Assembly (NCBI GenBank): GCA_051362555.1 | Contig: CM120640.1 | Coordinates: 50,074,788-50,138,787 of the forward strand | DNA: 64,000 bases | DNA from: Lingula anatina | Lineage: Eukaryota > Animalia > Brachiopoda | Reading direction: 5' to 3' | Shown: piece after piece, positions 3,601 to 34,915 of the stretch | How positions within the stretch are numbered: position 1 is the first letter of the stretch | Layout: every line of letters begins with the position of its first letter | Translations under genes and position numbers: made by a program | Notes under the pieces: generated by a model | Database searches by the model: none | The model's input: the letters and a program-made list of their open reading frames with translations, nothing else | What the model was told of the DNA's origin: nothing

Positions 3601-5492
3601 GGGGATTTAAGATAGTGGGTCCATTTGTTGCAATGATCTATAAAATGATCATAGGGGATTTGCTGCGATTCTTTACCATATATTTGGTTTTTGTAATGGG
3701 ATTTTCTCAGGGTATGTAGACATACAACTTTTTGTAGCATTACACCAGCATTAACAAGTGTTTGTTGTGTTAAAGCATATATTGCAGTTTAATTATAAAT
3801 TTGTTCTTACCCATATTTAGTTGCCAGCTAACCAATATTCCATAGGATATTTCCAGTAAATGTGAAGTCTTGATTTGGCGTAAATAACAGACTGCAAAAA
3901 ATACTGCATGTTAATATTTGTGCAGTCTCAAATAATTGTTTTGATTGTGTCTGTTGCAGCCATGTATATTGTATACCGTGGGACTGATGATCCCATCTTC
4001 AGCCACTCTACAGAGTCCATAATGGGAATGATCATCATGTCTTTAGGAGAGTTTGGTGACATTTATGATTCATTTGATAACACCCTACATCCAATAATGG
4101 GAAAGGTGAGTTTATGATATTTTAAATCGTAAACCCATTTGGAGCATTTTATCATAGCATAGCTATATGTCATGTGCCAGTTTTGGCCTGTTTGAAGCTG
4201 CTTCTACTAATCAACTCTATTATGTTAATTGCTACTTCTCTTGTACTGTATCTTGATATTGCATTACAACACTTACCTTGCCCTGTTATATTTTATTAAT
4301 TAATTTTTAAATGTGGAAACTTAATTGTTATTGTACATAATTTTATAAAATTCACATTAATTTCAAGGCAGTTTGAAGCAGTGTTATTTTTTTTTTCTTT
4401 ATTCCAGGTTTTATTCTTTGTATACATGGTCCTGGTGACAGTATTACTGGTTAATATGCTCATTGCTATGATGGGGAACACTTATACTCTGATCAACTCG
4501 ACCCAGAAAGAATGGTTGAGACAGGTGAGATATAAAAAGAAAGCTTCATTGTAATGCACATCAGTTTTTTTCATTTTTTAAACTCAATTTTATCATATAA
4601 GAATTTCAAAGGCTTTGCTATTCACAATTGAATTCCAAACTACAGTTATATTTTTGGAAAGAAAAATAATATAATATTGTCTCTTTTACTCACACAGTAA
4701 AAATGTATATATTGTTTCTGTGAAATGAATTTTTATCTAATTTAAAAAGAGCATTGTTGGGTTTAGATTATAACCAAAATTCCCTTGAGAACATCAATTG
4801 ACAATTTTTTTTTTTTTTTAGAAAGCTCACATAGTCCTGGTGATTGAACAGAGCGTGACCACAGAAGAGAGGAAGAGACAACAGAGGATTTACTCCCAGC
4901 CCATGGGGGGTGACCGACGGGCACTGGTGGTCAGGTGGCATCAATCTGTAAGTGGTTTGGTACAATTTTTTCAGAAAGCCAAATACTGAGATGTTTTACG
5001 TTTGTTCATAATAATGAAAAATATTGGTATTTTTTTATTCTGAATCTATTACATATACTTCTCTAATTTTGTCCTGTATGCTTTGTTTATGACAGCATTA
5101 CTTGGAAGAAAGCTAATTTACCGTCTACCCTTGAAAGATGTGTTTTGTTCATTTGGTACATATGAAGATACAAGCTTATTTGGCCAGTGCATGTTTTGCA
5201 TCTTTTTTTTATTTGAATTTGTTGTGACACATTTTTTCTGTATTTGTTGTAATACATTTTTTAAGCTTAAGTTGTGTATAATATTTCCCATAAGTCATGT
5301 AATTTATCTATATTGAGTGTTGAAAAATATATTCAGGAAAAAGAGAAAAAGGAGTTATTGCAGCTGAGAGAAAAACATCGTCTCCAGAAGCAGTCTAAAC
5401 TGGCAAGAAAGAGAGATGGACGAATCCTGGTGGTCAGTGGGAGTACTACTTTAAATGTACTAGAAGCTGAGCAGGGCTTAGTTAACATTTAA
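670..5492 (+). CDS. nan: TRPV cation channel, Nanchung/OCR-like (3' part; 5' exons lie upstream of the window)
   Basis: Phase-consistent GT-AG exons: 670-792, 1291-1440, 1655-1737, 1923-2082, 2591-2698, 3195-3346, 3602-3711, 3960-4105, 4408-4524, 4822-4947, 5337-5492 (TAA). Encodes ankyrin [73 protein letters not shown] and [16 protein letters not shown], which match Nanchung-type TRPVs. Confidence 0.88.
2258..2472. mobile_element. Non-autonomous MITE (PIF/Harbinger-like), family A copy 1
   Basis: Flanked by TAA/TAA with degenerate TIRs. The interior is the reverse complement of the copy at 32102-32316 (shared gatcgacctaactccctgggggttca and gtaatctagtgagactcccc). Confidence 0.7.
2875..3130. 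mobile_element. MITE with CAG(G/T)GGC...GCCACTG termini
   Basis: Imperfect TIRs CAGGGGCAGGTCCAGG / CCTAAATCTGCCACTG and a GC-rich interior with poly-C, inside an AT-rich TRPV intron. Superfamily not assignable. Confidence 0.6.
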
Positions 5493-8344: not shown

Positions 8345-9942
8345 TCATTTCTTTTTACCCTTTCCAGACTTGATATTTTTAAAGACCCAATCCATGCCTT
8401 CCTGTAATAAATGAAAAACAAATTAAAAAAGATTGATGGCATAAAAACACTTTTTCTTTTTCATGGGATTTGGCAAGACCAGTGTTTTTACAAGTTTTTA
8501 ACTAAATAAAGGTAGAAAGTATTTATTTATGGGGAAATGTTACATCATGGCCTTAAAGTAGAAATATTTTCTTACTCTGACACCCTCTCCAGTAATAGCA
8601 GAGCATGGCTGTATCTGCCATGCATGGTCACGTATTTGTGAAAGATCCAGCCCTTCAGAAATTTCACCTGGACTAGAAGCATTAAACAAATCCTGCTTAT
8701 TTGCATATATGAGGACTGGAACTCCGCCTAGTTTTTCCTCTTCTAAAAGTTCACCTAGCTCCTGCAAATAATATTATTCTTTAGATTAATATAGATAAAA
8801 AAAATTGTCATTACTTTTGCATTATTTTTGCTAAATAACTCAATATCTAATTTTTTCATAAATTGGAACAAATCAATTGTAAATTCCCAACATGTTTAAT
8901 GCCTTATAACTGCCTTTTGGGGATCAAAAGACTCCACACATATATATATATATTTCCTTTCTGAGTCTGTCTACCAATACCTTTGTTTTAAGATTTTACA
9001 GAATCTCATGAAAATCACGAAAATAAGAAAAATAAATAATAATAACAATCTTTGCATTTTAAGAGCAAAGATAAAAATGGTCCTGGAGTCAGACTTATGG
9101 TTGGGGTGGGCAAACATTCAGCTTGGAGACTAATATAAAGTAAGTTCTTCTGTGGTCTAATTTTGCTTATAAAACAGTTTTTTAAACTCCTTATGATGCT
9201 TGGGATGCCTGCATTCTAAAAAATCAATATGTTTATCATTGTAAATTATCTTGTTCTAAAACAGTAAACTATAACGATTTGGACTTCCACCTAACAAGAA
9301 TCTCCTGCAGAGTTGGACTGACCCAGCTAATACAATGTGTGCATCTGAATGCACCATGACACAATGGTCTTTAATGCACGTACCGCTCCTGTTTCTTCAA
9401 ACCTTTTCTGGTCTGCACTGTCTATCACATACACCTGAAATAAATTTTTTAAAGACGCAACATAAAATAATGTATTTAAGTGATTATTTATCATAATCAA
9501 TATCTTTTATTTTGAGCCAGTAAAAATTAAATATTACACTACTTTTTCTAAATGTACTTATTTGCAGTTTCACACATGACATATTTACAATGAATACTTA
9601 CCAAAATATCAGTGTTCTCAAAATAGTTTCTCCAATATGGCCTTATATTCCTCTGTCCTCCAATGTCCCATACATTTAACTTAAATCCATCTGATGACAC
9701 ACTCTTTATATTGAAACCCTATGAAAAATAATGAAGAAATCTTAATATGCATACTTCCCATTGTAAAAATGTCTATTGAAAACTCAAAAGCATGGAAATT
9801 GTTCACTAATTTTGAACTCCAATCTTTTAGGAGCATAGCAATAATGAGAAATATAAAACAGTAAATATCCATCAAAGGAAGCGACTCCAAACTCCCCAAA
9901 ACCATTTACCATAAAACAGAGTAAATTATCTCTGAATCCAAG

Positions 9943-9987
<45 letters not shown>

Positions 9988-10888
9988 TAGTCACCTGTGT
10001 TGGCATAATGTGGCTTATGTCTTCTGATGCTAAATGTTTTAATATTGTTGTCTTCCCAGCATTATCTAAACCTAGCAGCAATATTCTCAACTCCTTATCT
10101 GGAGAAGACTTAAGTTTCCGTAAAAGTGAAAGCAATCCCTAAAATAAATTAAAAGGTATTATAGAATAAACAATGAAACACGATAATGTGAAAATGCATT
10201 CCTGAAAACATTAAAATAGACATTCTTTTGACATAAGTTTATGTAATTCAAACCAGCCTTGATTATGCCTAAAACAAGTAGCATAGCAATAATGAGAAAT
10301 ATAAAACAGTAAATATTCATCGAAGGAAGCGACTCCAAAAACTATTTACCATAAATCAGAGAAAATTATCTCTGAATCCAAGCTATACCATATTTCTTTG
10401 GGAAAATAAAAAATAGTATAAAAGGCTTGATGATGTCAATATTTAATGAAATATCTCAACACTGTGAAAGAGGGTTGCTGTTTTAAAAATAAACATTATT
10501 CTTATTGTTTATTAAGTTACCGCAACTCTTGTAGATCTTGACATCCTTTCATTAAAAAATGGCCCTACTATCTAACACTTAGTGACTTAGAAATGACTCC
10601 CATTTTTCCAAATAGGCAAAGAAAAAACAATTTTTTTATTAAATACACAAGAAACCGTGACTGAAGTCTAAGTACCAATTATTTCTTTGCTCCGCCATTT
10701 TCAAATTGGCTTCGTTGCAAACATCATGCCTCCAACCGGATCAATAATAAGTAACTAGTATGTATAACCAAATAATACATTTACAATAAATCCGAATCCT
10801 TAGTAACACAAGATTTTCACTGTACATTTATCAATTATATTAAAACCACATCTGTGGAAGAAAAATGATGTCAAACAATTCTTACCAT
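8345..10888 (-). CDS. ARL3: ADP-ribosylation factor-like protein 3 (185 aa)
   Basis: Exons 10886-10888 (ATG only), 9995-10138, 9602-9718, 9384-9434, 8576-8761, 8345-8401 (TGA), all phase 0. Sequence [51 protein letters not shown]. Confidence 0.96.
9832..10387. repeat. ~110-bp direct duplication, one copy in each intron flanking ARL3 exon 2 (9832-9947 and 10280-10387)
   Basis: Both copies read agcatagcaataatgagaaatataaaacagtaaatat...gaagcgactccaaa...tttaccataaa...attatctctgaatccaagctata. Confidence 0.9.
9944..9984. repeat. (TA)n microsatellite; others at ~12407-12452, 32040-32089 and 52711-52747
   Basis: Directly visible dinucleotide runs. Confidence 0.95.
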
Positions 10889-11876: not shown

Positions 11877-12402
11877 ATGAAGATGGCAAATAATAATTTT
11901 GCAAAGGACATGCGCATCAATCTGGATGAACCACGGTGGGATCAAAGTACATTTGTTGGTAGACTTAAATACTTTTTTTGGGTAACAGATCCTAGAGCTG
12001 TATTTAAGACAAATAAACAGCTTGATGATGCCAAGGAACTTGTAGCTCTCTATAAGTAAGTTGTGTGTGTGTCTCAACTAAATATGCATATAACATGTTA
12101 GATAAGTATCTTTCAGATAAGTATTTTTCTAAAAGCTGCAAAAAAAAAAAGAAAAAAAAATCAAACTTAATTTATTCATTCAAATTTTTTACAAAAAATG
12201 CCAAATTTTAAATGCCAAAATAATTGCATGGTGTTCAAAACACAAATTTGAGGGATAGATCTGTGATGACTTACATACAAGATAAAATTTTGATGACAAA
12301 TGTTTTAGTGGGAATAAGCTATTTACACAGCCATGAAGCAAGTATAACATTGAAATCGTTCCCATGCCACCCTCTTATTTTTTACCGCCCTCATTTTTTT
12401 TA

Positions 12403-12457
<55 letters not shown>

Positions 12458-15400
12458 TGAATATCTTTTGAAATAAAACTTCACTGTACAAAGTCAACAT
12501 TTGCAGTTTTTCATTCTTGTTAATCACTAAACTCACATATTTTGGCAGATGTACCAATTGTAGCATAACATGTGATGCATACAGTTCAGGGCAATTAAGG
12601 AAACTGTCATCAATTTGTCAGACAGATTATTAACAATGTCAAAAGGCAAGAAGAATGCTAGATTGAGTTCAGAATTGAAAACTTTAAGAGGCTATACATA
12701 CACTGATTTACTGTAGGTTGTATTAATTTACCTTTGTCAAATATAACTTTCATACATTGTGTTAGCAGAAGAAGGATTTTTTAGAATAAGTATGCAGGGA
12801 AGAAAAGAGGAGTAAGTATTTCATAATTTGAGAAAGTCAGAGACATTGTTTATGTGACATTGCTATAAATATAATTAATAAATGAAAGCCCATGCTTGCA
12901 ACTTTTAGGGAAGGCAAAGAGCCAGAGGGTACCACAGAAGAACAGATATGGTATGCAAAGAAACTTACTTTATCTGCCTTCCACCCTGACACAGGTGAGA
13001 GACAGAATGTCATAGGAAGAATGTCATTCCAAGTTCCTGGAGGCATGTTAATCACTGGATGTCTGCTGCAGTTCTACAGGTCTCTCTTATTCTTTTTTTC
13101 TCTCTTACACAAAAGATATTTAATATTGGAAATAATTATGACATTTGCTATATGAGGAACAGCTGTCATATTTCATATGATCTATTTGTACTTCTAGAAC
13201 CAGTGCTGCTGTGGTCTTCTGGCAGTGGGTAAATCAGTCCTTTAATGCATTGGTTAATTACACCAACAGAAATGCTCAGGCCTCAATCACTAACCAGTAA
13301 GTTGTTTATAGATTATAAAATCACACTGATAATTACTTTTTGACTCGTGGAGTAATTCATTCACAGATATATTTGTAAAAGTATTATAAATTTAAGTATG
13401 AAAAAACTTAATTAGTACTATCTTAGATAAAAGAATTAAGAACTGTGTGACTGTCCTAATGTCTGGCTTTGTCATCAGTAGCTTGATAACTACATGTCAC
13501 TTTCATTAGAACTATCTGTTAGAACTGTTTGAACTAGTACTACGATTGAGTAAAGTTTTTGGGTGTAAGATGAGTCACTGTGGAGGTGATTTCCTTTCAT
13601 TCTTTTATAGAAACAGGGTCTCTATGTATATTTATATTTAAGTGCGTAGTAGGATTGCCTCCTAGTGTTTCTCACTCTCAAAAGGAAATGGCATACGTGA
13701 CAAAATTATACTTTACTAAGTGTTACCATATATTCTTCTGAATTTTCAATAATATAAATATGACTTTCCTTCCAAACTTGTTACTAACAGTTGTACACAT
13801 TGTTGTCTCTCTCTCTCTTGGTGGTGGCCCTTTGTTAATTGCCATATGTTAGTACTGTCTATAAGAACTTTCTGAACTTAGGCTTCGTTCACATGCAATG
13901 TCTATTTTCTAAATTCTATTTTCTATTCGCGCTATCTTATGATCACGGTCTGTGCACTCAATATCCCGCCGCGTAATTACTGGCAGCGCGAGCCAGTTAC
14001 TTATAGTAACTTATAGTAACTGGCTCGCGCTGCCAGTAATTACGCGGCGGGATATTCAGTGCATAGACCGTGATCATAAGACATGCCGCAAATAGAAAAT
14101 AGAATTTAGAAAATAGACATTGCATGTGAACGAAGCCTTACTTAAATTTAATGCTAAATATCCATAAATGGTCATCTTGTCATCATGCATGTTTTTATCT
14201 TTTACAACAGACATTTTCCTGTCTGTCATGGGAGACACACCAGCTGTATCAACCAATTTTATCCCATCTATTAAAACAATACATCCCAATTCTAAAAACA
14301 AGAATTGTCCATGTAGCTAGTTAAGATAAAACTTATAGTATCAACGTTATCTTAAATCACAACACTACAGGAACATTAATACACTAAGAGTGAATGAGTA
14401 CAATTAGAATTGAATCAACTTTTAATTTGCTTTTATTTATCATATTATTATGATATTGAAGGGTATTATCAGCTTTAAAAATATTCTTATAGCAGACTGT
14501 ATATCATATCTTTGTAATGCAACCAAGCCATATAGATCATCTGTCATACTCACCTTTCACAAAATCAATAAAATGGGTCAATTATGAGAGACATTGAAGA
14601 AAAATGTTGAGCTGAAGCTCTCAGATTTTTCACAGAGCTACTATAAAATCATAAATGTAAAGAATATTTCTACCAAATTTCAATTCATACTGTTTAGCAT
14701 ATTATGAAATTAAATGCTTCCAAGTTGATGATAAAATACAGCTTTCAAGATGTTGACAAAATTGGAACTGTGTCCTTACTGCATCCATTGTGCTGGATGT
14801 TTTGTTTTGTCCTGATATTTAGTTGACAGATTATAATAGAATCCAAATTTTGAGCTGCAGATAAATGAAATTGAACTTTTTATGACTTTAAATTGTAAGT
14901 GCAAAAAAAAAAGTTTTATGACTTTAAATTTTTTAGCAAAAAAAAAAAAAAAAAAATACATACATACATACATACATACATATATTAGTAATGCTGATTT
15001 GATACTATACATATCTGACTGGAGAGAGGAATGAGGTCATGTTTATACATCCCACACACACAAAAGTTGGCAAACAAGTTTGGAGTGCAAGTTTGGAGGA
15101 AATAATTCATTTCAAATGGAAAAAATGCATTGGGTATTGAGGTGGAAAAGTACAATTGATCACAGGGAAACCCTTAATGATGTTGCTTTTATACTTTTAA
15201 TAATACATACCCCTTTAAATATTTTTTAAATATACTGACTGACCAAAGAATTCAGTTGCAGAATTTTTTTTTTAAATAAAAAATGAATTTTGTCTACAAA
15301 CTATGTTTACATACATGTAGAGTCACCACTTGGTCTGGTATTACATTAAAAAAAATTCCTTTAAGTCACGCCCCTTATTTTTTACATATTTTTTACTAGG

Positions 15401-18400
15401 CAGATAGCTGTTGCATATGTGTCTGCTACCTCTTCTGCTGTAGTCACTGCTATTGGACTCAAGACTTTTTTATCTAAGGTACAAATCTATTATATATTTC
15501 CTTCTGATTATGTTTCCTGTTGAATTCAGTTAATTATAACTTTTTCTTAGAAAGGAAATACTAAAGCAATAACATGTGAATCCCATATGTGTCACATCAA
15601 ATTATGAGAGGTGGGTCAAGGAGGTAATATGCCATTTGCAGCTAGATACGGCATTGCATAGTGAATAGTGCTCATTCTCATAGTAACACTCTCTGAGGAC
15701 AACCACGGTGTTACTGAATGCTTTTTAAGATAGTAGGTTTTGTAAGTTTGTTCATATAACATTATCAACATACTACAAAAATGAATTTCGATCTGACAAG
15801 TGTTTTGTTAAGCACATCCCTTGAAGGTGGTTCCTACACAGGAGGTTGACCCCACATTTGTAGTTTTTGAGCCACCTTTGCTCAAACATTACTCTAAATG
15901 ATGATTAATTTAATTTCCAGAGAACTACATCAACATTGTTGCAGAGGTTTGTCCCGTTTGCTGCTGTAGCTGCTGCTAACATGGTGAACATTCCTCTTAT
16001 GAGACAGAGGTACTGCATGTTTTGTTTGTAATCAAGTGAGGACCTTATAAATGAAACTGCCATTTGTTACATCGAGCTGCAGATTAGTGATTTCAATCAC
16101 TGAATTTATGACTGGACAGCTATATTTTATTGTCCAATTACACAAATACTGACTGTACGTGTCATTAACTGGGAATCACAAATCTGCTCACTACCCCTTC
16201 CGTATGTGAGATTATTGAGAGCGCATTACGTACTCCCATATTTATTTAGGAAAGGAAATAGAAGATTATAGAAATGTATTACAAGTAGTTTTATAGAAGA
16301 TTATAGAAATCAGTTACTTTCATTCTTTGTGAAGGTTTTTTTTCCTCAATTTTTAAATGAAAAGGTATATATATAAGGTATTTGTTGGTTGGCTGTCTCA
16401 AAGAAAACACTAAGCTTTTAAGTATTATCAGAACTGGCAATCTAAATTGCTTATTCATGGATCCAATTCACAAATGGCAATTATTGTTCAAGATGCCTGA
16501 AGTGTTTACAGCTTTTCTGTAATACTTTTCCTACATCCAGCATGAAGATGTGTATATATTCTTTGCGATGTATCTCCCAATTTCCTTGTATATTTACAGT
16601 GCTTGTTAATTGATTAAGCCCCAAGGTCTGTCATTTTTATTCAACAAAGGAAAAAGGGGCCATGACAATGATGTAAAAGTAGATAAATAGTAAATGAGAC
16701 TTTTTTGGTTTTCCTAATTGAAGTACAAGAGCTGCACCTTTGGTCATTTCAGTGAGTTAATAGATGGAATAGCAGTATTTGATGAGAATGGGAAAAGGGT
16801 ATCAGAGTCAAGGGTAAGAATGTTTTTTTTTTTTTTTTTTTTGTTTTTTTTGCACTGTAAAATTTTTCTTTTGTTATTCATGATAAACTGCAAAGATATT
16901 GTGCTAGAAATGTCAGTGAGTCACAAATTGAAAGCACCTTTGTTTCTTTACAGTGAACAATTCAATTGCTTTTTAGATATAAGAGACGATAAACAACTCC
17001 CTGCTAAGAGTGGTCAAATATTTGCTTATAAATTTGTGTTTTAATGAATATATTCTTTCTGAATCAGTTAATTTTATAATAGTGAAAATCTTTTTTCTTT
17101 TTTCAGTATGGTGCAGCAAAGGGAATCAGCCAGGTTGTGTTTTCTAGGATTGCAATGGCCACCCCTGGAATGTGTAGGTCTTCCCACATTGCATTATATA
17201 TTGAACTAATGTGAACAAAATGGTTTTAAAAACAAGATGGATTGCATAGTTATAGACTTTGCAATATATTTGAATAATTGGTTTCCACTTGAAAATTAAA
17301 TTTAATGCAAAGGGTTCCATTTATACTGGTTGCTGATTAATTTAAAAATAGACTTCTGCAGCATGTGATGTTATCAAACCTAATGTACGTATGGGGAATT
17401 TATAAAAAAATGTGACAGGTTCTTTTTGCTTCACACTTTACTGTCCAGTGGTTATTATTCTCTGTCTCAATTTTTAGTATTAACGCCAGTCATTATGGAA
17501 AGATTAGAAAAATATAGATGGATGCAGAGGATTAAACCAGCCCATGTTTTTATACAAACATTGATAGTAGGATGCTTGTAAGTAAACAGCTTTACTGAGC
17601 AGTGCTGTGCATTATTTAATGGGTTATATAAAACTCCAGTGATTTAGACCTTAGATAGCCTGTGGTAGTTGACACAGATCTCATGTTTTTACCTGCTACA
17701 GACGTTTAAGATCTTAATTCATATAAATGAGTAATTTTCTACCCAAGCAGTTATGGTTCATTGTAAAACAAATATAGTGAATAATTTGATGCTAGCATTC
17801 AATGATTGGAAATTTATTTCACCTTCAGCCTTCTTTTCATGACACCAACTGCATGTGCCTTATTCCCACAGAAATGGTAAGATATTTAAAGCAGTTTTAC
17901 TTACATTTTCAGCATATAAATTTGTGCTTGTGTGGTTAGCTTTAGACCAATTTCTTTTGCACTTTTTCGTTTCATCTTCAGTGTTATATTTACCACTCCC
18001 ACTGCATGTGCCTTCTTCCCACAAAGATGGTAAGACCTGCATTTACTGGTTTCTTTTTCTCCTTTAAATATCTTCTTTCTTTATTTTAAAGTGTAGAATA
18101 ATTCACGAGGGTTAACATGTTGCATCTTAATCCACGAGTTTTAAAATATGTTTATTTCACTTTAATATAACAATTAAAATGGAGTTTATTTAGTTAAATG
18201 TTGTGTGTCACATCTGGATGCACATGGGCTTTTGTGGGGTTAAACATGAAGAGTATGAAGATAGCCCCTCTCACCTGCTTAAAAATAATAATTGATGCTT
18301 TTTTTTCACTAACAAATAGGGAACAGGTAGATACAAATAATTAGTGCTTTTTCCACTTACAAAAAGTTAACAAGTAGATACAAAGCTGTGTGATTAAATT

Positions 18401-18881
18401 GAGTAGTTTCTAAACATACTAAGACCGCATTCACAACGAGTTGAGCCATGGATCTACAAAGTCGCGTACTAAATATGGCGGGCGTACATTAAAGGAAAAC
18501 CACCTAATCTTTTAATAGTCTCTCCGCCTCTCACACGCCTCCCCATGTGTCGTCCCAATGGAGGTGAGATTTATTGACTGTACCCCCGCAGGAACGACAC
18601 ATGGGGAGGCGTGTGAGAGGCGGAGAGACTATTAAAAGATTAGGCGTTTTTTCTTTTATGTACGTCCGCCATATTTAGTATGCGACTTTGTAGATCCATG
18701 GCTCAACTCATTGTGAATGCGGTCTAATTAACTTAAGTAGCATGTTGCTGAATCTCATTATTCTTTCAGCTCTATCAATCTAGAGAAAATGAGGCTTGTA
18801 GACTCCAAGAAGTATGAGGCTATAATGACAGGATATGGAGATGCCCCACCGAAGAAACTATACTTCAACAAAGGTTTATAA
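11877..18881 (+). CDS. SFXN2: Sideroflexin-2-like mitochondrial inner-membrane transporter
   Basis: Exons 11877-12055, 12909-13079, 13198-13296, 15400-15478, 15921-16009, 16753-16813, 17107-17173, 17478-17577, [17829-17876 or 17982-18029], 18770-18881 (TAA). Motifs [66 protein letters not shown] and C-terminal YFNKGL. Exact start Met (11877 or 11883) uncertain. Confidence 0.93.
13881..14137. mobile_element. Fold-back MITE (PIF/Harbinger/Tourist-like)
   Basis: Near-perfect 257-bp palindrome GGCTTCGTTCACATGC...GCATGTGAACGAAGCC with TTA target-site duplication at 13878-13880 and 14138-14140. Confidence 0.9.
17829..17876 (+). CDS. SFXN2: SFXN2 duplicated exon A (48 nt, phase 2-2; [17 protein letters not shown])
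   Basis: ttcag acceptor and GTAAGA donor; matches the single sideroflexin segment of FLIFMVPVACGLFPQKC type. Confidence 0.85.
17982..18029 (+). CDS. SFXN2: SFXN2 duplicated exon B (48 nt, phase 2-2; [17 protein letters not shown])
   Basis: Long polypyrimidine tract with ttcag acceptor, GTAAGA donor, same length and phase as exon A, open frame. Confidence 0.8.
18423..18724. mobile_element. Fold-back MITE (PIF/Harbinger-like), family B copy 1
   Basis: Long TIRs GACCGCATTCACAA.../...TTGTGAATGCGGTC with TAA TSD. Shares cctaatcttttaatagtctctccgcctc with 32869-33414. Confidence 0.9.
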
Positions 18882-20554: not shown

Positions 20555-23500
20555 TTAACTACAGAAAGTCTCAATGATGGACTCTATACAATCAAAATAC
20601 ATCTCCATTCTGGGTGTTTGTCCACTTTCTCTTTGTGAAAACTTTGCCCTGAGTTCTTGGACTACCTCTGTGACTCTGTCCTCACTCTCTGTGTTTTCTG
20701 AGATAATGCTCTGTCTGGCCCAGATGGGCATGTAGATGTTCTCTGGTGTAACAAAGAAAATGTATAAATAAACCAACCTGTTGACTAACTTTAGACAAAA
20801 TGCATTTCAGCATCAAACTGTATTTAATTTATTGTTGTGCAGCAATAAGTGAGAGACTCTGATTACCAGCAATAAAAAAACTTGGTCTAGAAAATAACTG
20901 GAGAGGCCAAATTGGACTGTAAAATAAAAAATTTACATGCGAGTTAAAAGGGCAAAATATATCAAAATTTTTGTTACCTTTTTTTATCCTTACATAACTT
21001 TCCACTAACATGAACAGAAGCATCACCAGTTCCTCCATGTCACTTGTGTTGTGTCCTGGGCAAGGCTTGTGATCCTGATCCTCAGGGGTGGGGCTACAGC
21101 CTGGGGATGAGGGAGGGGTCAAGTTACCAGTGGCACGTGGCGGGGGAACACAGTCTTTGTAACATTCCAGCATATCCAAAAGACTACCATGGCCATTTTT
21201 CATGTATATAGCATAGTCTCCATCACAGTAATCCTCCAGAATCCTTTGCACTACATGAAGTCGCAGAAGATGATTACATATTGTAGACAGCAGAAGATGA
21301 CGTGTTTCTTTACTTGGCTGCATTATGTAATTTCTGGCCAGTTCAACTGCAATTTTTCTAGCACTGTCAATGGGATGTGGAGTCACGCTCAAAGAGAGTG
21401 ACAACAGTTTCTGAATGAGGGGCAAGACTTCTGGTACATCCTTGTGGCACACAGAACTATCATCCTCACTCAGTGCAATTTCTCTTTTTACATTGTGTTT
21501 TGAGAATGAAGCTGTGACATTGTCATGTTCCCCCAAAACAAAGCAACTACACAACCATGCCAATATTTGTTGCACATGTTGGAAGTTGCTTTCAGCACAG
21601 AGCCACCTATATACCACAGACTTCTTGACATCTCTCTGATCAGATAAGTTGTGCTGTGCCAATTCCATCTCCAGGTAACTGACTATTATTTCAAGCCCTA
21701 GCGCAGTACTGGCAACAGACAGAGGCTCTTGCTCATTCACACTGTCAGGAAGGCTCAGACATCTGAGAATGTGTTCAATATGATCCCACTGGAAAGGAAT
21801 ATTCCTCTTTGGGGGATGAAGAGTCTGAACATGTTTAAGTGCCTTATAAGCCTTGCTGGTGATTGTATAATCTTTACTTATAATGAGTATGTCTTTCAAA
21901 ATGTCAACAACCATCTTTTCTGAAGGGCGCATTCTGCTAGTGGTAAAATCCTCCACCATTTTGGTCACATGAAAGTTAAATGAATTTCCTTCTTCCAAGC
22001 AAGCCTCTATGGAATGAACTTGTGCAGACGTGAATGACTTTGGTTGTACATCACTGCCTAAATTGGCATCTATACCTGGTTTACTGACCAGAAGTTGATG
22101 GCTACTTGTACTGAATTTCCTGAGTGAACTCACACTGGTTTGTTGTTCTTCTTCTTCTTCATCCTCTGGTGGTGCATCAGTAGAATGTAGCAAATGCTGA
22201 AGCGAGGTTCGCACAATCTGGTCAGATACATTCCTTTCTGCCTTCAAGTGTTTTTTGGGTGATGCACATTCAAAATCACTATCTTCTTCAACAGCAGATT
22301 TTCTTCGTTTTTTGCTGAATGTGCAGTCATCTTTCCAATCAGTGTGAAAAGTATGCTCTCTTTCTTTTCTTTTTACAATACCTGTACATTTTTGAACTTC
22401 TGTGATCCTGCGTTTCTTTTTGCAAGATTTGGCACCCTCCCTTTGTTTTTTCTCTTTCAACACATTAGGACATAAAGACAGGGGCTGATTTATCTCATTG
22501 TCACTGTCACTGACAAGATCAATCAATACTTCCTCAAGACCAAGATCTCCCTCAAAATGCTGTTTACTGTATGTATCTTTGTGTAAGGGGATCCCCTCTT
22601 CAGTATCAGAGTTGCTTATATCACTGTAACAGAAAATGGGCCTTGATTTGGACTTCTCTGTATCTGACTCACTGCTTATGTCACTACAGTCCAATACATG
22701 GTATCCGTTTTCTGCTGATGATTGTCTGGTAACACTATGATCTGCTTCTGATTCACAATCACTTATATCACTGTACTGATTAGTATCATACCTTTTCTTT
22801 TTAGCAGGACTTTCCTGATCATCGTCAAAGTTTCCTTGTTGTTGTACTCTACTCGGTGCCACTTTTAATTTTGATACAGCAGTTCTCAGCTTCTTTAAAT
22901 TAAGACTGATGTTTGATTTATTTTTTATGTCTTTCAAAGTATGTTCTTTTTGAGCAGTAAAGTCATTTGAGATTTTGTGATAGCATTCTTTTTCTAGAAA
23001 CTGTGTGGTATCCTCACTGTCACAGCCTAACTGGTTTTCTTTTCTGGTAGTTTGCTGGGACAATAAAGAAAAACTTCCAAACTCTCCTCCATCCAACTGG
23101 TAATCAGTCTTTACATCTGGTGGTGGTGTGTCTTGCTCTTTATAGGTCTGGGGAAGAAAATAATGGTGTTATATAGTTTTAAACAAATCTCTAAGGATTT
23201 AAAGTAAATTATCCCAAGGTCAGCGCTTTGAACAGTAGGATAAGGGCACTTGCTTTTCACCTACATGCTCGCCTGTATTTTTTTAGCTTTGGCATTCATC
23301 CTGTTGTTCTAAGTGCCAGCCTTGGAATAAGTCAGTTGCAGCAAGAAGCAACTTCTTGGTTACAGCTACTCATTGTCCATTGTCCACTCGCTATAATTAG
23401 GCTGATATAATTAGGCTCAGCTGTGCCTCATTATTATTATGCTCTTGTATGTTGCATGCAGCAGACAACTCATGTTGCAACTAGTCTTTAAAGTGTTAAA

Positions 23501-26500
23501 ATATCATAACAATTGTTCTTTAATGTGTCTGAGAACTACAGTGCTTAGGGGAAGGTGTAATTTGAACCAGATAAGCATTATCTTTATAGATCTTTTTTTA
23601 ACTATGGTAGACTATAAGGGTCTTATCACTTGACTATATTTTTACAGTTTTGTTATACAATAGGATTTTGTTATACAACAGTTATACATGTATATACACT
23701 CCTGTTAGTGTTATGCCTGGTAAAAGGTGACAAAATGGGGACAGCGCGCTGTGCCGAAGGTTCGCTGTGCCGAGGGTTCACTGTGCCGACAAAACCGGAA
23801 AATTGGTCTAAAATCGGCTAAGTTTTTCCGGAGCCCCAAAATCAAAGGTTCGCTATGCCGAAAGGGTCGCTGCGCCGAGGGTTCGCTGCGCCGAAAAAGT
23901 CGGCTACCCATCACCCATTGTGCTTGTTATGTAACGTGGCGAGCAGTGGCCTTTTTTGAAAATAAACGAGTTTTAAAAGTTCTCTTCTTCTATCCGTACC
24001 ATTTGGATTTGTTAAAACTGCGCATTGAAGATTTATCCTTATGGACATAAACATCTTAAATCGCTTTAAATAATCAGTTCTGTAAGTTAATATATTAATT
24101 ATTTTTGGCACTATGGGCGTCACCCACATTTAGGAAATTACTGACAAGAAAACATTCTCTAATTATTTTTGGCGAACTTGTTGTAGTTATTGGGTGTGTG
24201 TAAAATTAACATCTTTTTAAAAACAATCGGCATAGCGAACCCTCGGTATAGCGAACCTTCGGCTCAGCGAACCCTCGGCATAACGAACCTTCGGCATAGC
24301 GAACCCTCGGCACAGCGAACCTTCGGCATAGCGAACCTTCGGCATAGCGAAGCGCACCCGACAAAATGAGCATTTGTGACTAATTTCTGTGTTGCAATGA
24401 ATTGCCTAAGGGACAACTTCTTAATACAGGAGCTAAAAACTTTTCACATGACACCATTTGAAATACATATTATATGAAATGAAAAGGGTGATCATACAAT
24501 GTGTGTAATGCACTAAAGGTAGATAACAAAGGTAAGAAAAATGACTAGTCCATCATATTATATTATAATAATAACTTGGGTACCTTCAATAAGTGATATT
24601 AACATGAAAGGTTAGACTATAAAATGTGAGTAAAACACTTTCCTATTTTAGAAATGCAACATTCCCTTTCACTATGACACTCAAATTTTAACCAGATGAT
24701 GAAAAATCCACAAATGGCCAAAACTGTTGTTAACTAGTGAGATAACATCGTAATTTCACCATTATCATTTCAGGTGCATAACTGTACATTCACTTCCCAC
24801 ACTACATAATCCCTTTGACACCTAAATTTAAAGCTGTTTAAAGCTCCCAAAGGGGACATAATCTTACATCATTTCATATCATATCAGATAAAAGTTTTCA
24901 AATAACCAGGGTGCAGATTAAGCACTTACCAACTAGCAAATGCTTGTGCTTTTCAACTTTGACAAACACCATAACCAGAGAAAAAGCCTATTTCTTCTTT
25001 TTGTGAAAAAGTTAAGGCCTATATTCTTTACCTTTACATACCTAACTAAGGGAATACATGTAGCAAAGAAAATCTGTGAAGCATATGTCTTTATCACATC
25101 AGAGGTTGGATCCTTACCCTAAGCAAATATATATTATGCTGCTACATTTACACAAAACTCAAGCTTTTTATCTGATATCCTTATTACATAACAATCAGAG
25201 TTGCCTGTATAGCTTCTATATTTGCTTTAATATATGTTATAAAATATCAGCATATCCTTTCAAATGAAGACAATCCCATTCAGCCTTCTAGATGCAATTA
25301 TTGGTCTATAGTAGCCACAAAATTTTCTGCTAGGTGACCTACTTGATACCCGTTTTGAAAATGTATGCATGCACAATGATAGCTTAATAAAACATCAAAC
25401 ATAACTTAAAGCATAAATCCAGTTGTTTCTATTTTTGCTTTGATATCATGTAGATAATTTACCCATAAATCCCTCTAACCACAAGTTTGCATAGAAGCCA
25501 CAAAAATATTGCAAAACTTCGATTGAGAATAAAAATAAAAAGTAATCATATTTATTAATATGGTAATAACAAAACCAGTTAATATCCAAAATGTAATCCA
25601 AATGTCAAAATATTCATTTAAACATAAAGATCAGAGCGCTATCCAAGCCATTCGAAATACCTGTAACAAAAATTTATGTACCTTTAGTAACTGTTCAATA
25701 ACAGACCAAGCACAGTGGTCCATGGACAAAATTCCCAGCATCATGAAATTTCCTACTTCTATACAAAAACAAGAGCGTGTGCACATGCTTCCTGTCACTT
25801 CACTATGATCAAAGTGTAACCAGTATTAAATCACATGATTATGCTGTGCTATGTTGATAACCTATTCTAACCATCCAAGTTAAGCCACATCATCATTAAA
25901 CCCCAATGCCACCAATGGCTGGCAGACACAAGGCATATCAGTGTGACTCATGACAAATGGCTTTATCAGGTAGAGTTACAGGATCAATTTTTAATGCAAA
26001 TGCTGGTATCGAGTTTCATTCTTGACTGTTATTTCTTTCAAACTGCCACATGATCACTTGATTATAGAAAAAATATGAACACTTGATTAAAATGTTTAAA
26101 ATGTTTGTAAAATGAATCAAATTTGTTGTATAGTAAAACAATAGCTTACTTATAAAATTTCACTAGATCAAATAGCTACATGTATAAAATGCTTCCAATA
26201 TTAGAAATTCCAACTAATACCATGATATGGTGTTTCTCTTCTCAGGGATCTGCATATATCTATTCTTTAACTGACCCCTATATATTTTTCTATGGCAGAG
26301 ATATTGAGTAACCTAAGATTATCCAGGAAACCCAGCTATTGGAGCAACTGATCAAACCTTGCTGACAATAAAAAATATTCTCCACTTGATTCTCCACTTG
26401 ACTGAGTAAACAAGGCAGCAAATCTGTCAAATATACATACATAAAGCAGAAAATAAAAATGCATGTAATAGGTTATTTGTCAATTTTGATGCAATATTAC

Positions 26501-32092: not shown

Positions 32093-34915
32093 CATCTATT
32101 AGGGCGCATTCCCATAGATTTTAGATCGATCTATCCCCGTGGGGAGTCTCACTAGATTACTGTCAAATAATCCGGCTTAAATGTCTGTCCCACCTACTAC
32201 AAGCTGTAAGGGGGTAATTAACTTCCATGTGAGGTCGGCTGACAGCAATTTAGCATGAACCCCCAGGGAGTTAGGTCGATCTAGTAAGATCGATCTAAAT
32301 CTCTGGAAATGCACTCTTAGCCTTGTGGATGTTGCCATTTTTATTTGGCTAACTGTAAATGTGTAATTACTGGTTTGGCAATTGCAGTCGGGCTACCAGT
32401 TGCTGAAATTAATGTTGGGCCCTGCACCCTAGGTACTTTAACAAACAACTTAGCAATCTCTTGAATCAACTTAGTATCAGCCCATCTAAAAAAATGACTA
32501 GTGAACTATGGAGGGCATTTATATCGCTTTTATGATGATGATGATGTGGACATTTGAAAATCTTGCAAAATGCACTAGTATCACCATTAGACTCTAAAAT
32601 GCACTAGTATCACCATTAGACTCCAAGATTTTCCAAATTTTTGTAGAAAGAAAATTTAATCATTTTAGTTAATGAGAACATCTACTATTATCAACCTCTG
32701 AAAGGTATAAACGTCATTGTTCCAATTAATGCAACACATCTGCAACTTACATGTAAATCACCATATTCATAAAGGTTCATGTATATTGATGATAAACAGC
32801 ATTCACTCATTGCTTTGATTGCGATTTCCTAATAACTTTCTGTAATTATCAAAAATCATCTTTTCTAAGAGCGCATTCTCAACGAATTAAGCCAGGCTTT
32901 ACAAAGCCGGTGACCTAAAAATGGCAGACGTACATGAAAGAAAAACCGCCTAATCTTTTAATAGTCTCTCCGCCTCCCCACACGTCATCCCTGCGGGGTA
33001 CAGTAATTAAATCTCGGCTCCGTTCGCCATGCGGAAGCTACCTGAGAAATATTAAGTGCGCATGCTTATCAGTTAAACTCATGGTGAAGAAAGCATGGCA
33101 GCTGAAGGCGATCGAAGGAAAAAAGCTCTTCTGTTCTATTATCTTTGAAAACAGAGACGAAAAAGGAATAATTTGGCCCGTAGAGCAGCAATGAATCGAC
33201 TATCTACGGAGATAATATCCCCAGAGATATTCACGGAAATATTAGTGTTCGGAGCCGAGATTTAATTACTGTACCCCGCAGGGACGACGTGTGGGGAGGC
33301 GTGTGAGAGGCGGAGAGACTATTAAAAGATTAGGCGGTTTTTCTTTCATGTACGTCCGCCATTTTTAGGTCACCGGCTTTGTAAAGCCTGGCTTAATTCG
33401 TTGAGAATGCGCTCTTAGTGTTTTCTTAGATTCTACAACCACATAAACAAACTTGTTATCACTAGGAGTGACATCATTGCACATGCCAGCAGTTGCAAGT
33501 GTGACATCACAATGAAACCCTGACACACTTCTCATTCTCTTGTACATCTTAGTGCAGTTTACATTTTTTCTAATAACCCCTGAATCATACTGGCTGTTGA
33601 GTTCTCACCTCCCTTGAGAGGATACAGCCCAGCTGTCTTACACATGTATGGCCGCATTCAGAATAGTGGTCTTACTAGTCCACGGGTCAAATATGTCATC
33701 TAATACCCTAGCACGAAAATTAATGCGTTAGCACTCCTATTGACGATTCTGATATGTACTGGCTGTGCACAGCCAGTGCATATCAGAATCGTCAATAGGA
33801 GTGCTAATGCATGAATTTTCGTGCTACTAATACCCTAATAGACACTGAATAGATTCCCCGTGGAGAAGTATTCAAGTGGGTTGGCCATATTTGACTTGCA
33901 GACTAGTTAGTCAGCTGTTCTGAAAGTGGCCTATGAGGTGCTGAAAGCTAGCATACCAACAATATCTTTCATTGCCAGACCAGGATTAATATATTATTAA
34001 ATGACTGGTGTCGCAATACTGTTTGAACCCATAGCACTCCCTAGGCAGGCAGGCTTAGCAATAGAGATCTCTTTTCCATAAGCCCATCATGCATACATGA
34101 CAAAAGTGGACAGAGCTTAACACAAAATTAACAAACTGACTTCAATAGGCTAACATAATTGGGTTGATGTAACCTATTTTAGTCAAATTTGAAGCATTTT
34201 GCGGGAAAAAAAAGTAGTGAAAAAGTAGTGATGTGGCTACAGTAAGTGAAGAAAATAGCTGCTTTTTAACAAAGGCCTTCACCTTGCTAGTCTCAAGTAT
34301 GGGTCTGCTTTGGTTGATTACAGATACTCGCAGCGCTAGTACTAGTAGTTTGGAATAACGACAAAAGTTATATGATATGATTTTGGGGTTCCCGTGGGGA
34401 AGGCCGACTTAAATAGAAGGGACTTAGTACCATGACATATAAGATATACATACCTTATTTGGCTTCGCTTGTCTCCCTTAGTCCAGTGCTATATGTTACA
34501 TACAAAGTGCCAGTGTATGTACAAGTAGCACTCACACACATAAAGTAAAACGTCTTACCTTAAAACCTTTCTTCGATGTATCCAATGTCGGGTAACCACT
34601 TGCAGGTTTTATTTTCGTGCTTTCACCGAACGAGGCTTTCAGGCATCTACTGTTGGATGAGCGATGAAACGAATCGTCTTCACTGAAACTTGCACTTTCT
34701 TTTGATGTATTTGGCAAATGATTTGCTGTAGCTGCGAAAGGAGATTCTTTGACAGCAGAAGTCTGAAAAGTTGCAGAAGATGCAGCCAAAGGATGTATAT
34801 CTAAAACTTCAATTTCATCGGAAGATATGTCTATTACATCACTCTCGTCCGTATCACTCGATATATATATAACTTGATTTTGTGAGCCCATCATAAATGC
34901 CTTAATGCACCCCAT
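20555..34915 (-). CDS. SIMC1: SUMO-interacting motif-containing protein 1-like (SIM-rich N-terminus, Nse5-like helical C-terminal domain), ~900 aa
   Basis: Exons 34559-34915 (SIMs VIYISSD, VIDISSDE, IEVLDI; phase-0 donor), 20978-23147 (phase-0 acceptor in frame with the 755-aa ORF) and 20555-20742. The segment DFTTSRMRPSEKMVVDILKDILIISKDYTITSKAYKALKHVQTLHP resembles vertebrate SIMC1 [25 protein letters not shown]...EAYMLLMKIQQLHP as recalled. The join across the 11.4-kb intron is inferred from phase and SIM content. Confidence 0.75.
23738..24359. mobile_element. Non-autonomous Mutator-like element with 16-bp subterminal tandem repeats
   Basis: Perfect 9-bp TSD GACAAAATG at 23729-23737 and 24360-24368, GGG...CCC termini, and inverted arrays of (t)gccgaaggttcgct units at both ends. 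Confidence 0.88.
27509..29328. mobile_element. Non-autonomous TTAA DNA transposon (Kolobok-like) with internal tandem repeats
   Basis: Perfect 17-bp TIR GGTAGATCGGTCGTTAC / GTAACGACCGATCTACC and TTAA on both sides. Three to four ~185-225-bp tandem units (aaattgggggtcaccgac..aataagagaacta) at ~27530-28215. No intact transposase ORF. Confidence 0.85.
29592..31665. mobile_element. Non-autonomous TTAA DNA transposon (Kolobok-like), family K copy 1
   Basis: TTAA flanks and short imperfect TIR GGGGGGAATGTAGG / GGTACATCCACCCC. About 1 kb of the left arm and 0.55 kb of the right arm are reverse-complement homologues of 48167-50377. Confidence 0.85.
32102..32316. mobile_element. MITE (PIF/Harbinger-like), family A copy 2
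   Basis: TIRs GGGCGCATTCCCATAGATT / AATCTCTGGAAATGCACTC with TTA TSD; inverted homologue of 2258-2472. Confidence 0.82.
32869..33414. mobile_element. MITE (PIF/Harbinger-like), family B copy 2, long TIRs
   Basis: TIRs of ~150 bp, GAGCGCATTCTCAACGAATTAAGCC.../...GGCTTAATTCGTTGAGAATGCGCTC, with TAA/TTA flanks. Confidence 0.88.
33650..33931. mobile_element. MITE family C (GGCC termini, TAT TSD) carrying a nested insertion
   Basis: TIR GGCCGCATTCAGAA / TTCTGAAAGTGGCC with TAT on both sides; related to 42157-42350. Confidence 0.75.
33709..33826. mobile_element. 118-bp hairpin MITE with 9-bp TSD (Mutator-like), family D copy 1
   Basis: Near-perfect palindrome TAGCACGAAAATT...AATTTTCGTGCTA; TSD CTAATACCC at 33700-33708 and 33827-33835. 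Confidence 0.88.

What the first reader, a model, noticed from the sequence alone, without database searches (positions are those of the whole stretch)
17577..18080. Competing RNA base-pairing switch around duplicated SFXN2 exons
Seen: the start of the inter-exon intron (17879-17905) is complementary to two distant partners. Pairing 1: the reverse complement of 17887-17904 is GTAAGTAAAACTGCTTTA, versus the upstream intron start GTAAGTAAA-CAGCTTTA at 17578-17594 (one bulge, one mismatch); this loops out exon A. Pairing 2: AAGATATTTAAAG at 17879-17891 is a perfect 13-bp complement of CTTTAAATATCTT at 18062-18074, extendable by AGAAA 17870-17874 with TTTCT 18076-18080; this loops out exon B. The two helices share 17887-17891, so they compete. 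Each ties the donor of the preceding exon to a site just past the exon being skipped. Established: competing docking-site/selector pairing drives mutually exclusive splicing in insect Dscam, 14-3-3zeta and Mhc. Inference: this is a two-way structural switch in a mitochondrial transporter gene, which I do not recall being described. Caveats: the sequence is AT-rich, 17581-17596 can also form a local hairpin, and both helices occlude the donor that must eventually be used.
Basis: partly seen in the sequence, partly recalled or inferred. Interest (0 to 1): 0.82.

Follow-up and report, generated by a model that had tools for sequence, protein, structure and literature searches.

The report
Donor-hiding RNA switch in brachiopod sideroflexin
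A mitochondrial transporter gene (SFXN2) of the lamp shell Lingula uses one of two look-alike 48-base exons, and the short stretch between them matches the start of the intron before and a site in the intron after better than chance, so it likely folds the RNA two ways that each would hide one splice signal and help decide which exon is used.

Summary
Both complementarities are at the stated coordinates. The gene is Lingula anatina SFXN2. Exons A and B are real alternatives: RefSeq X1 and X2; exon 8 joins A in 34 reads and B in 4, with no A+B or skip-both joint listed. The two donors flanking exon A have the best donor-anchored complements among 114 GTAAG sites, apart from a hairpin repeat and helix 1's own mirror (shuffles 2 and 1 of 3000). 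By energy they are weaker (5 and 29 of 300). In a diverged lineage the only change in the upstream arm hits helix 1's sole mismatch; the other arms were not covered, so covariation is untested. The helices share only 5 nt and could coexist as a pseudoknot. The layout is that of Drosophila serpent bidirectional pairing, so the kind is known. What differs is that both helices bury 5' splice sites. The scan noted similar switches in other genes of other genomes, none in SFXN2.

The parts
17478..17577 (+). SFXN2 exon 8 (constitutive, upstream of the pair)
   Evidence: Boundaries rebuild P0002/P0121; RNA joints 17173>17478 and 17577>17829/17982
17572..17594 (+). Arm X: exon-8 donor and first 17 intron bases (17578-17594), with a possible exon-side extension from 17572; pairs with arm M (helix 1); 17581-17596 can also form a local hairpin
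   Evidence: one substitution in run X10, at the mismatch position 17588
17829..17876 (+). Exon A (48 nt, ancestral-type residues, major isoform, RefSeq X1)
17877..17915 (+). Exon-A donor and arm M: 17879-17891(94) pairs downstream (helix 2), 17887-17905 (plus 17911-17915) pairs upstream (helix 1); also holds the only two yTnAy branch-like motifs of this intron apart from one 8 nt before the acceptor
17982..18029 (+). Exon B (48 nt, derived copy, minor isoform, RefSeq X2); 12 of 48 bases differ from A
18059..18080 (+). Arm Y in the intron after exon B; perfect 13-bp complement 18062-18074 with extensions
18410..18737 (.). High-copy hairpin repeat (156-nt arms, 89% complementary) in the last intron; if folded it would shorten the path to exon 10
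   Evidence: very high depth in DNA run X10; only sub-threshold Rfam hairpin matches
18770..18881 (+). SFXN2 last coding exon (exon 10)
   Evidence: RNA joint exon A > 18770 and loose ends
11877..18881 (+). Whole SFXN2 coding span (exons 11877-12055, 12909-13079, 13198-13296, 15400-15478, 15921-16009, 16753-16813, 17107-17173, then exons 8, A or B, 10)
   Evidence: Pfam SFXNs; 100% match to Lingula anatina sideroflexin-2

Best explanation
Lingula SFXN2 splices in either exon A or exon B, and the first 28 bases after exon A are complementary both to exon 8's donor and to a site after exon B, so they likely form two alternative pre-mRNA helices that would each hide one splice donor and thereby help set the A/B choice. 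Shown: the exons, their alternative use, the complementarities. Inferred: helix 1 can form first, as soon as arm M is made. It locks exon 8's donor and leaves exon A's donor (+1 to +10) open; exon A then joins exon 10, that intron carries away exon B and arm M, and the freed exon-8 donor can only join A (isoform A, downstream intron first). If arm Y takes over arm M, helix 2 buries exon A's donor and releases exon 8's; the 48-nt exon A loses its definition and exon 8 joins B (isoform B). The least supported step is what stops exon A's donor from joining B in the helix-1 state; helix 1 covers the intron's branch-like motifs, which may do it.
For: Alternative use: exon 8>A 4, 8, 11 and 11 reads; exon 8>B 0, 1, 3 and none listed; A>exon 10 4, 10, 6 and 12; no A>B or exon 8>exon 10 joint listed (listing needs 3 reads). 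B is under purifying selection against A (pS 0.57, pN 0.14), so the duplication is old, yet the arms are near-perfect while the flanks of A and B no longer align clearly (p = 0.30 downstream, 0.04 upstream). Both arms start at donors and are the two best non-repeat donor-anchored complements in the window. Helix 1 core has probability 0.38-0.90 before arm Y exists when folding starts at 17540 or 17560. Forcing helix 1 takes the exon-8 donor to 0.0 unpaired and raises the exon-A donor to 0.45; forcing helix 2 gives 0.33 and 0.16. Little helix is left once a donor is opened. Arm X keeps every paired base in diverged run X10, and exon A shows 0 of 48 changes in X19 against 6 in exon 8. Precedent: a stem joining a donor to a box 185 nt away suppresses that donor (CG33298, PMC2724269, passages); SMN2 intron 7 long-distance pairing occludes the donor (PMC7404189, passage); ATE1 works by hiding splice sites (PMC7797038, discussion).
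Against: No covariation: arms M and Y were not covered in the diverged lineage. The conservation signal is weak: 6 of 11 transitions outside GTAAGT change helix 1 by 0.5 kcal/mol or less, and the local hairpin at arm X is equally unharmed (-7.0 both). Equilibrium folding of the full region mostly favours helix 2 (0.55-0.96 against 0.00-0.25; 3.2 kcal/mol), while A is the major isoform; this fits the loop-out mapping more simply, and masking then needs kinetic trapping of helix 1 or direct exon 8>A splicing in the helix-2 state. Folding swings with window ends (helix 1 core 0.00 for 17479-17920 and 17479-17950). Helix 2 is A/U-rich and unremarkable by energy (29 of 300). With about 38 informative reads, double inclusion of several percent would be missed, and one of three members of the protein cluster was not shown. 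No partly spliced reads were seen to test the order of splicing.
Confidence: 0.3

Rival explanations
1. The same two helices act as in Drosophila serpent: helix 1 loops out exon A and favours B, helix 2 loops out exon B and favours A; burying the donors only delays splicing until both exons exist.
For: Same order of arms as serpent, downstream-pairing part before upstream-pairing part (PMC6071210 part 3; PMC4691838 results). Helix 2 dominates most full-region folds and A is the major isoform.
Against: Each helix must open at the donor that is then used, leaving about -6 kcal/mol across loops of 170-290 nt. In serpent itself the weaker stem went with the major exon, so the match of strength and abundance is weak evidence.
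Confidence: 0.25
2. Only one helix matters and the other is incidental or a by-product; exon choice is biased by one pairing plus splice-site strength.
For: The two tests disagree on which helix stands out: helix 2 by perfect match, helix 1 by energy. Another intron of this gene reaches a score of 10 against helix 1's 11. Overlap is only 5 nt.
Against: Both are donor-anchored outliers by Watson-Crick score, and their joint occurrence was 0 of 2000 and 1 of 826.
Confidence: 0.15
3. The pairings are chance or neutral relics of short template-switch inversions in A/T-rich DNA; exon choice is set by exon definition and splicing proteins.
For: The finding was picked from a very large scan; the window is about 33% G+C; energies are only modestly beyond shuffles; no covariation was obtained.
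Against: Two consecutive donors flanking an alternative exon pair are both outliers, the exon-7 and exon-B donors are not; paired bases of arm X are unchanged in X10 while neighbouring intron carries an indel and the alignment breaks by 17653.
Confidence: 0.2
4. Arm M's TTTTACTTAC is a distant branch point for exon B, 23-27 nt from exon A's donor, and steric clash forbids A>B joining as in OGDH 4a/4b; its match to the exon-8 donor is a by-product of branch-like sequences resembling anti-donor sequences.
For: 8 of 10 acceptors of the gene have a yTnAy at -45 to -15; B has none there, only at -83, -79 and -8. OGDH distant branch points lie 25-41 nt from the donor (PMC7969005, passages).
Against: The AG exclusion zone fails: CAG at 17910-12 and TAG at 17937-39 and 17943-45 lie between; lacking a proximal yTnAy has a 20% chance from composition; it does not explain helix 2 or the 17-nt length of helix 1.
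Confidence: 0.1

Closest known systems
Drosophila serpent exon 4.1/4.2 bidirectional RNA pairing (PMC4691838: abstract, results part 1 of 4, sections 10 and 12 read; a corrigendum exists and was not read; summary in PMC6071210 part 3)
   Same: Two duplicated mutually exclusive exons; one pairing from the upstream intron into the middle intron and one from the middle intron into the downstream intron; crossing, pseudoknot-like order.
   Different: Serpent uses four separate conserved intronic elements that do not share a site; here the two middle elements overlap by 5 nt and both helices include a 5' splice site. Serpent is conserved across Drosophila and proven by mutagenesis; this case is neither.
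Human ATE1 exons 7a/7b, R1-R3-R4 (PMC7797038: passages, section 14 and discussion read)
   Same: A central element between the exons pairs either upstream or downstream, and the helices overlap splice sites.
   Different: ATE1 hides 3' splice sites and its outer arms are duplicated copies competing for the same site; here 5' splice sites are hidden, one of them constitutive, and the outer arms are not detectably homologous (p = 0.12).
Drosophila CG33298 donor-masking stem (PMC2724269, passages) and SMN2 intron 7 long-distance pairing (PMC7404189, passage)
   Same: A long-range stem of about 185-300 nt span that includes a donor and suppresses it.
   Different: Single stems controlling alternative donors or a cassette exon, not a pair of stems around duplicated exons.
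Dscam1 exon 6 / 14-3-3zeta / Mhc docking site and selectors (as described in PMC6071210 part 1)
   Same: RNA pairing linked to mutually exclusive duplicated exons.
   Different: No single docking site with homologous selectors at each exon; the sequence after exon B has no comparable complement (score 6, rank 83 of 114).

Membership tests
Tandem duplicated mutually exclusive exons | Homologous, same length and phase, each used alone | tested here: met
   48 nt each, 36 of 48 identical; both rebuild RefSeq proteins; exon 8 joins each in reads
Tandem duplicated mutually exclusive exons | Double inclusion and double skipping absent or rare | tested here: inconclusive
   No such joint listed in four RNA runs, but about 38 informative reads and a 3-read listing threshold; the B>exon 10 joint was not listed either
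Serpent-type bidirectional pairing | Upstream intron pairs with middle intron, middle intron pairs with downstream intron, in crossing order | tested here: met
   order as described in PMC6071210 part 3
Serpent-type bidirectional pairing | Arms conserved or covarying across species | tested here: inconclusive
   Only arm X covered in one diverged lineage, one change at the mismatch; no relative's intron found
Serpent-type bidirectional pairing | In-loop exon suppressed, outer exon activated, rescued by compensatory mutation | not testable with these tools
   Needs minigenes
ATE1-type competing pairing | Outer arms are duplicated copies competing for one site | tested here: not met
   Intron starts holding X and Y align no better than chance (p = 0.12); shared site only 5 nt
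ATE1-type competing pairing | Helices hide the 3' splice sites of the two exons | tested here: not met
   Donors are buried; acceptor tracts stay 0.6-0.7 unpaired in both forced states
Dscam docking site / selector | One docking site with a homologous selector at each variable exon | tested here: not met
   Post-A versus post-B p = 0.30; best exon-8-donor pairing after B is -12.7 against -19.7 kcal/mol after A
Distant-branch-point steric exclusion (OGDH 4a/4b) | Branch motif within about 50 nt of the upstream donor | tested here: met
   yTnAy adenines at +23 and +27; motif only, not mapped
Distant-branch-point steric exclusion (OGDH 4a/4b) | AG exclusion zone from branch point to acceptor | tested here: not met
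   Three YAG in between; nearest upstream AG at -38

The most novel reading that the evidence does not exclude
A self-releasing donor lock: one 28-nt intronic element alternately seals the upstream constitutive donor or the first alternative exon's donor, so that RNA structure dictates the order of intron removal, and excising the element itself unlocks the remaining donor. Mutual exclusion would come from ordered splicing rather than from looping out exons or hiding acceptors, and it would switch two near-invariant residues in the last long helix of a mitochondrial sideroflexin.
Probability: 0.2. Interest if true: 0.75.

Novelty: new variant of a known kind. Interest (0 to 1): 0.46.

Why it matters
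Pairing-controlled exon choice is established in insects and a few human genes; a compact case (500 nt, all parts in one small minigene) in a brachiopod would extend it and offers a clean test of an open point: whether such helices work by looping exons out or by hiding splice sites, since here the two readings predict opposite isoforms. Exon B replaces L283 (99% of homologs) and M286 (96%) in the predicted last long helix, residues 269-292, so the minor isoform may transport differently; no sideroflexin relative was found in solved structures. If the pairings are inert, this is an ordinary annotated exon duplication.

Tried and rejected
No whole genome was held. A pattern scan of metagenome contigs for the exon-donor junction found nothing. 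79 metagenome loci of relatives held no duplicated copy of this exon: 60 one motif, 18 none, and L050 has two whole tandem genes; four compact animal-like loci show a single copy with apparently the same exon limits. Among 237 fetched proteins none had the segment twice. Run X11 laid nothing and run X2 is near-identical (1 difference in 891), so neither informs on conservation. X10 depth near arm Y was not reproduced and looks like low-complexity matching. No indexed RNA holder was listed; raw-read runs were laid instead. Origin of the arms by duplication of one stem arm (PMC6071210 model) was not supported. Rfam gave nothing over the arms above threshold. Literature: 'sideroflexin' + 'mutually exclusive exons' 4 papers, 1 listed, about SFXN1/SFXN3 paralogs; 'SFXN2' + splicing terms 6 listed, none on such exons by title or abstract start; 'Lingula anatina' + 'mutually exclusive' 29 papers, 20 listed, none on splicing by title; donor-masking search 0 papers. 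The library lacks most subscription papers, and no supplements were read (MXE catalogues there could list this pair). Earlier scan notes: none near this place or by sequence.

Full report
Gene and exons. A 56-residue exon from the window is 100% identical to Lingula anatina sideroflexin-2 (P0002; Pfam SFXNs). Ten GT-AG exons between 11877 and 18881 rebuild P0002 (RefSeq X1) exactly with exon A (17829-17876), and P0121 (RefSeq X2) exactly with exon B (17982-18029). Both are 48 nt, so including both or neither would keep the frame and decay cannot enforce the choice (inference). A and B differ at 12 of 48 bases, pS 0.57 and pN 0.14: an old duplication with both copies under constraint. B is the derived copy, changing L283 (186 of 188 homologs with a residue) and M286 (181 of 188) in the predicted helix 269-292. 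No second copy of the exon was seen in 237 proteins or 79 loci of other organisms.

Use of the exons. In RNA runs X12, X15, X18 exon 8 joins A in 4, 8 and 11 reads and B in 0, 1 and 3; A joins exon 10 in 4, 10 and 6. X19 adds 11 exon 8>A reads, 12 A>exon 10 loose ends and about one read on B. No A>B, exon 8>exon 10 or B>exon 10 joint was listed (threshold 3 reads). So A is about 90% and exclusivity is consistent but thinly sampled. X18 and X19 belong to a lineage with six substitutions in exon 8, and X18 still uses both exons.

The observation. Duplex energies: helix 1 -13.3 as stated, -16.4 with one more pair and flanks, -20.4 extended; helix 2 -11.3 to -15.8. Chance: position-blind shuffles gave helix 2's 13 bp in 1 to 4 of 2000, a helix-1-like score in about 3%, both in 0 of 2000; sliding geometry gave both in 1 of 826 placements. 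Among 114 GTAAG sites on both strands, the exon-A donor ranks 2 and the exon-8 donor 4 for a complement 60-400 nt downstream, behind a hairpin repeat and helix 1's own mirror; shuffles gave 1 and 2 of 3000, against 2517 and 2241 for the exon-B and exon-7 donors. By energy the result is milder: 5 of 300 and 29 of 300. Six other intron trios of the gene score 7-10 and 8-9 against 11 and 13. These tests were set up after seeing the finding, and the finding was selected from a large scan.

Do they compete? Only in part. They share 5 nt (8 with extension); helix 1 keeps -11.0 to -15.0 kcal/mol without them, helix 2 keeps -5.5 to -7.9. Nested folding makes them exclusive because they cross. Before arm Y exists, helix 1's core is at 0.38-0.90 for folds starting at 17540 or 17560 and 0.00-0.64 from 17479; with arm Y either helix wins depending on window ends; over 17470-18120, 17540-18120 and 17479-18400 helix 2 leads, by 3.2 kcal/mol at 37 C in forced ensembles. 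The pair is near-balanced, and these models cannot rank the states.

Conservation. A contig of run X10 shares the six exon-8 substitutions of X18/X19 and covers 17442-17653 (16 other letters, 8 listed, 1 gap). In arm X the only change is at 17588, helix 1's single mismatch; a deletion at 17598 and a change at 17617 lie just outside, and the alignment ends at 17653. Five of 19 synonymous sites of exon 8 differ; the five listed exon-10 changes (truncated table) are by my hand reading non-synonymous, so the neutral rate may be nearer 11% than 26%. The observed change costs nothing (-0.4 kcal/mol; 5 of 33 possible changes are as harmless), but 6 of 11 transitions would be tolerated, and the local hairpin is equally intact. 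Exon A has no listed difference in X19 at depth about 15. This points the right way but is not significant. Arms M and Y were not covered, so covariation, the decisive test, is open.

Mechanism. Both helices begin at a donor: helix 1 covers -1 to +17 of exon 8's, helix 2 +3 to +15 of exon A's. With +1 to +7 opened for U1, -6.5 and -5.8 kcal/mol remain, too little, I infer, to hold an exon looped out while that donor is used. Where such stems were tested they suppress the donor (CG33298, PMC2724269 passages; SMN2, PMC7404189 passage). I therefore read helix 1 as a lock on exon 8's donor that is released when A-to-exon-10 splicing removes arm M (isoform A), and helix 2 as a lock on exon A's donor (isoform B). 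The serpent-like loop-out reading gives the opposite mapping and fits the folding bias and A's dominance more simply; the two are close (0.30 against 0.25). Together with the one-helix case I put the chance that at least one pairing matters at about 0.7 and both at about 0.55. A distant branch point inside arm M is possible but fails the AG-exclusion test.

Known systems. The crossing upstream and downstream pairings match serpent exon 4 (PMC4691838; PMC6071210 parts 1 and 3). ATE1 has a central element competing for two partners and hides acceptors (PMC7797038). It is not a Dscam-type docking/selector array and the arms do not look like duplicated copies; short template-switch inversions are a possible origin (own knowledge, untested). 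My searches found no report of alternative exons in a sideroflexin, or of such pairing in Lingula. The scan's notes list similar candidate switches in other genes; they are unchecked and were not used as support.

Verdict. Real observation, real alternative exons, pairings probably not chance, function unproven. A new variant of a known kind, whose distinctive feature is that both helices bury 5' splice sites. Interest 0.46.

Noticed in passing
window 9995-10138 (-) and 11877 (+): An ARL3-like exon (best PDB matches ARL3) starts about 1.7 kb upstream of SFXN2 on the other strand, head to head. From memory, human ARL3 and SFXN2 are also head-to-head neighbours, which would make this an old gene pair.
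   Followed up: partly
window 9829-9947 and 10277-10387: A roughly 110-nt segment occurs twice (92-95% alike), on either side of the first ARL3-like coding exon.
   Followed up: no
window 18410-18737; also 32865-33418 and 13875-14143: Hairpin-shaped repeats like miniature inverted-repeat transposons; the first is very high-copy and heavily represented in RNA reads from both strands.
   Followed up: partly
window 20829-23168 (-): A 779-residue open frame with an acidic, serine-rich first half and no Pfam match at E below 0.05.
   Followed up: no
window 18770-18881: In run X18 the five listed differences in exon 10 appear by hand reading to be amino-acid changing, whereas five of six in exon 8 are silent.
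   Followed up: partly
window 17578-17600, 17877-17904, 18030-18048: All three introns of the cluster carry TTTACT shortly after their donor; the post-exon-8 and post-A stretches align at p = 0.015. Meaning unclear.
   Followed up: partly
window 23747-23900 and 24206-24365: Two inverted arrays of a 16-nt unit about 450 nt apart.
   Followed up: no
L050 1674-2840 and about 4282-4641: Two sideroflexin gene copies in tandem on one metagenome contig.
   Followed up: no
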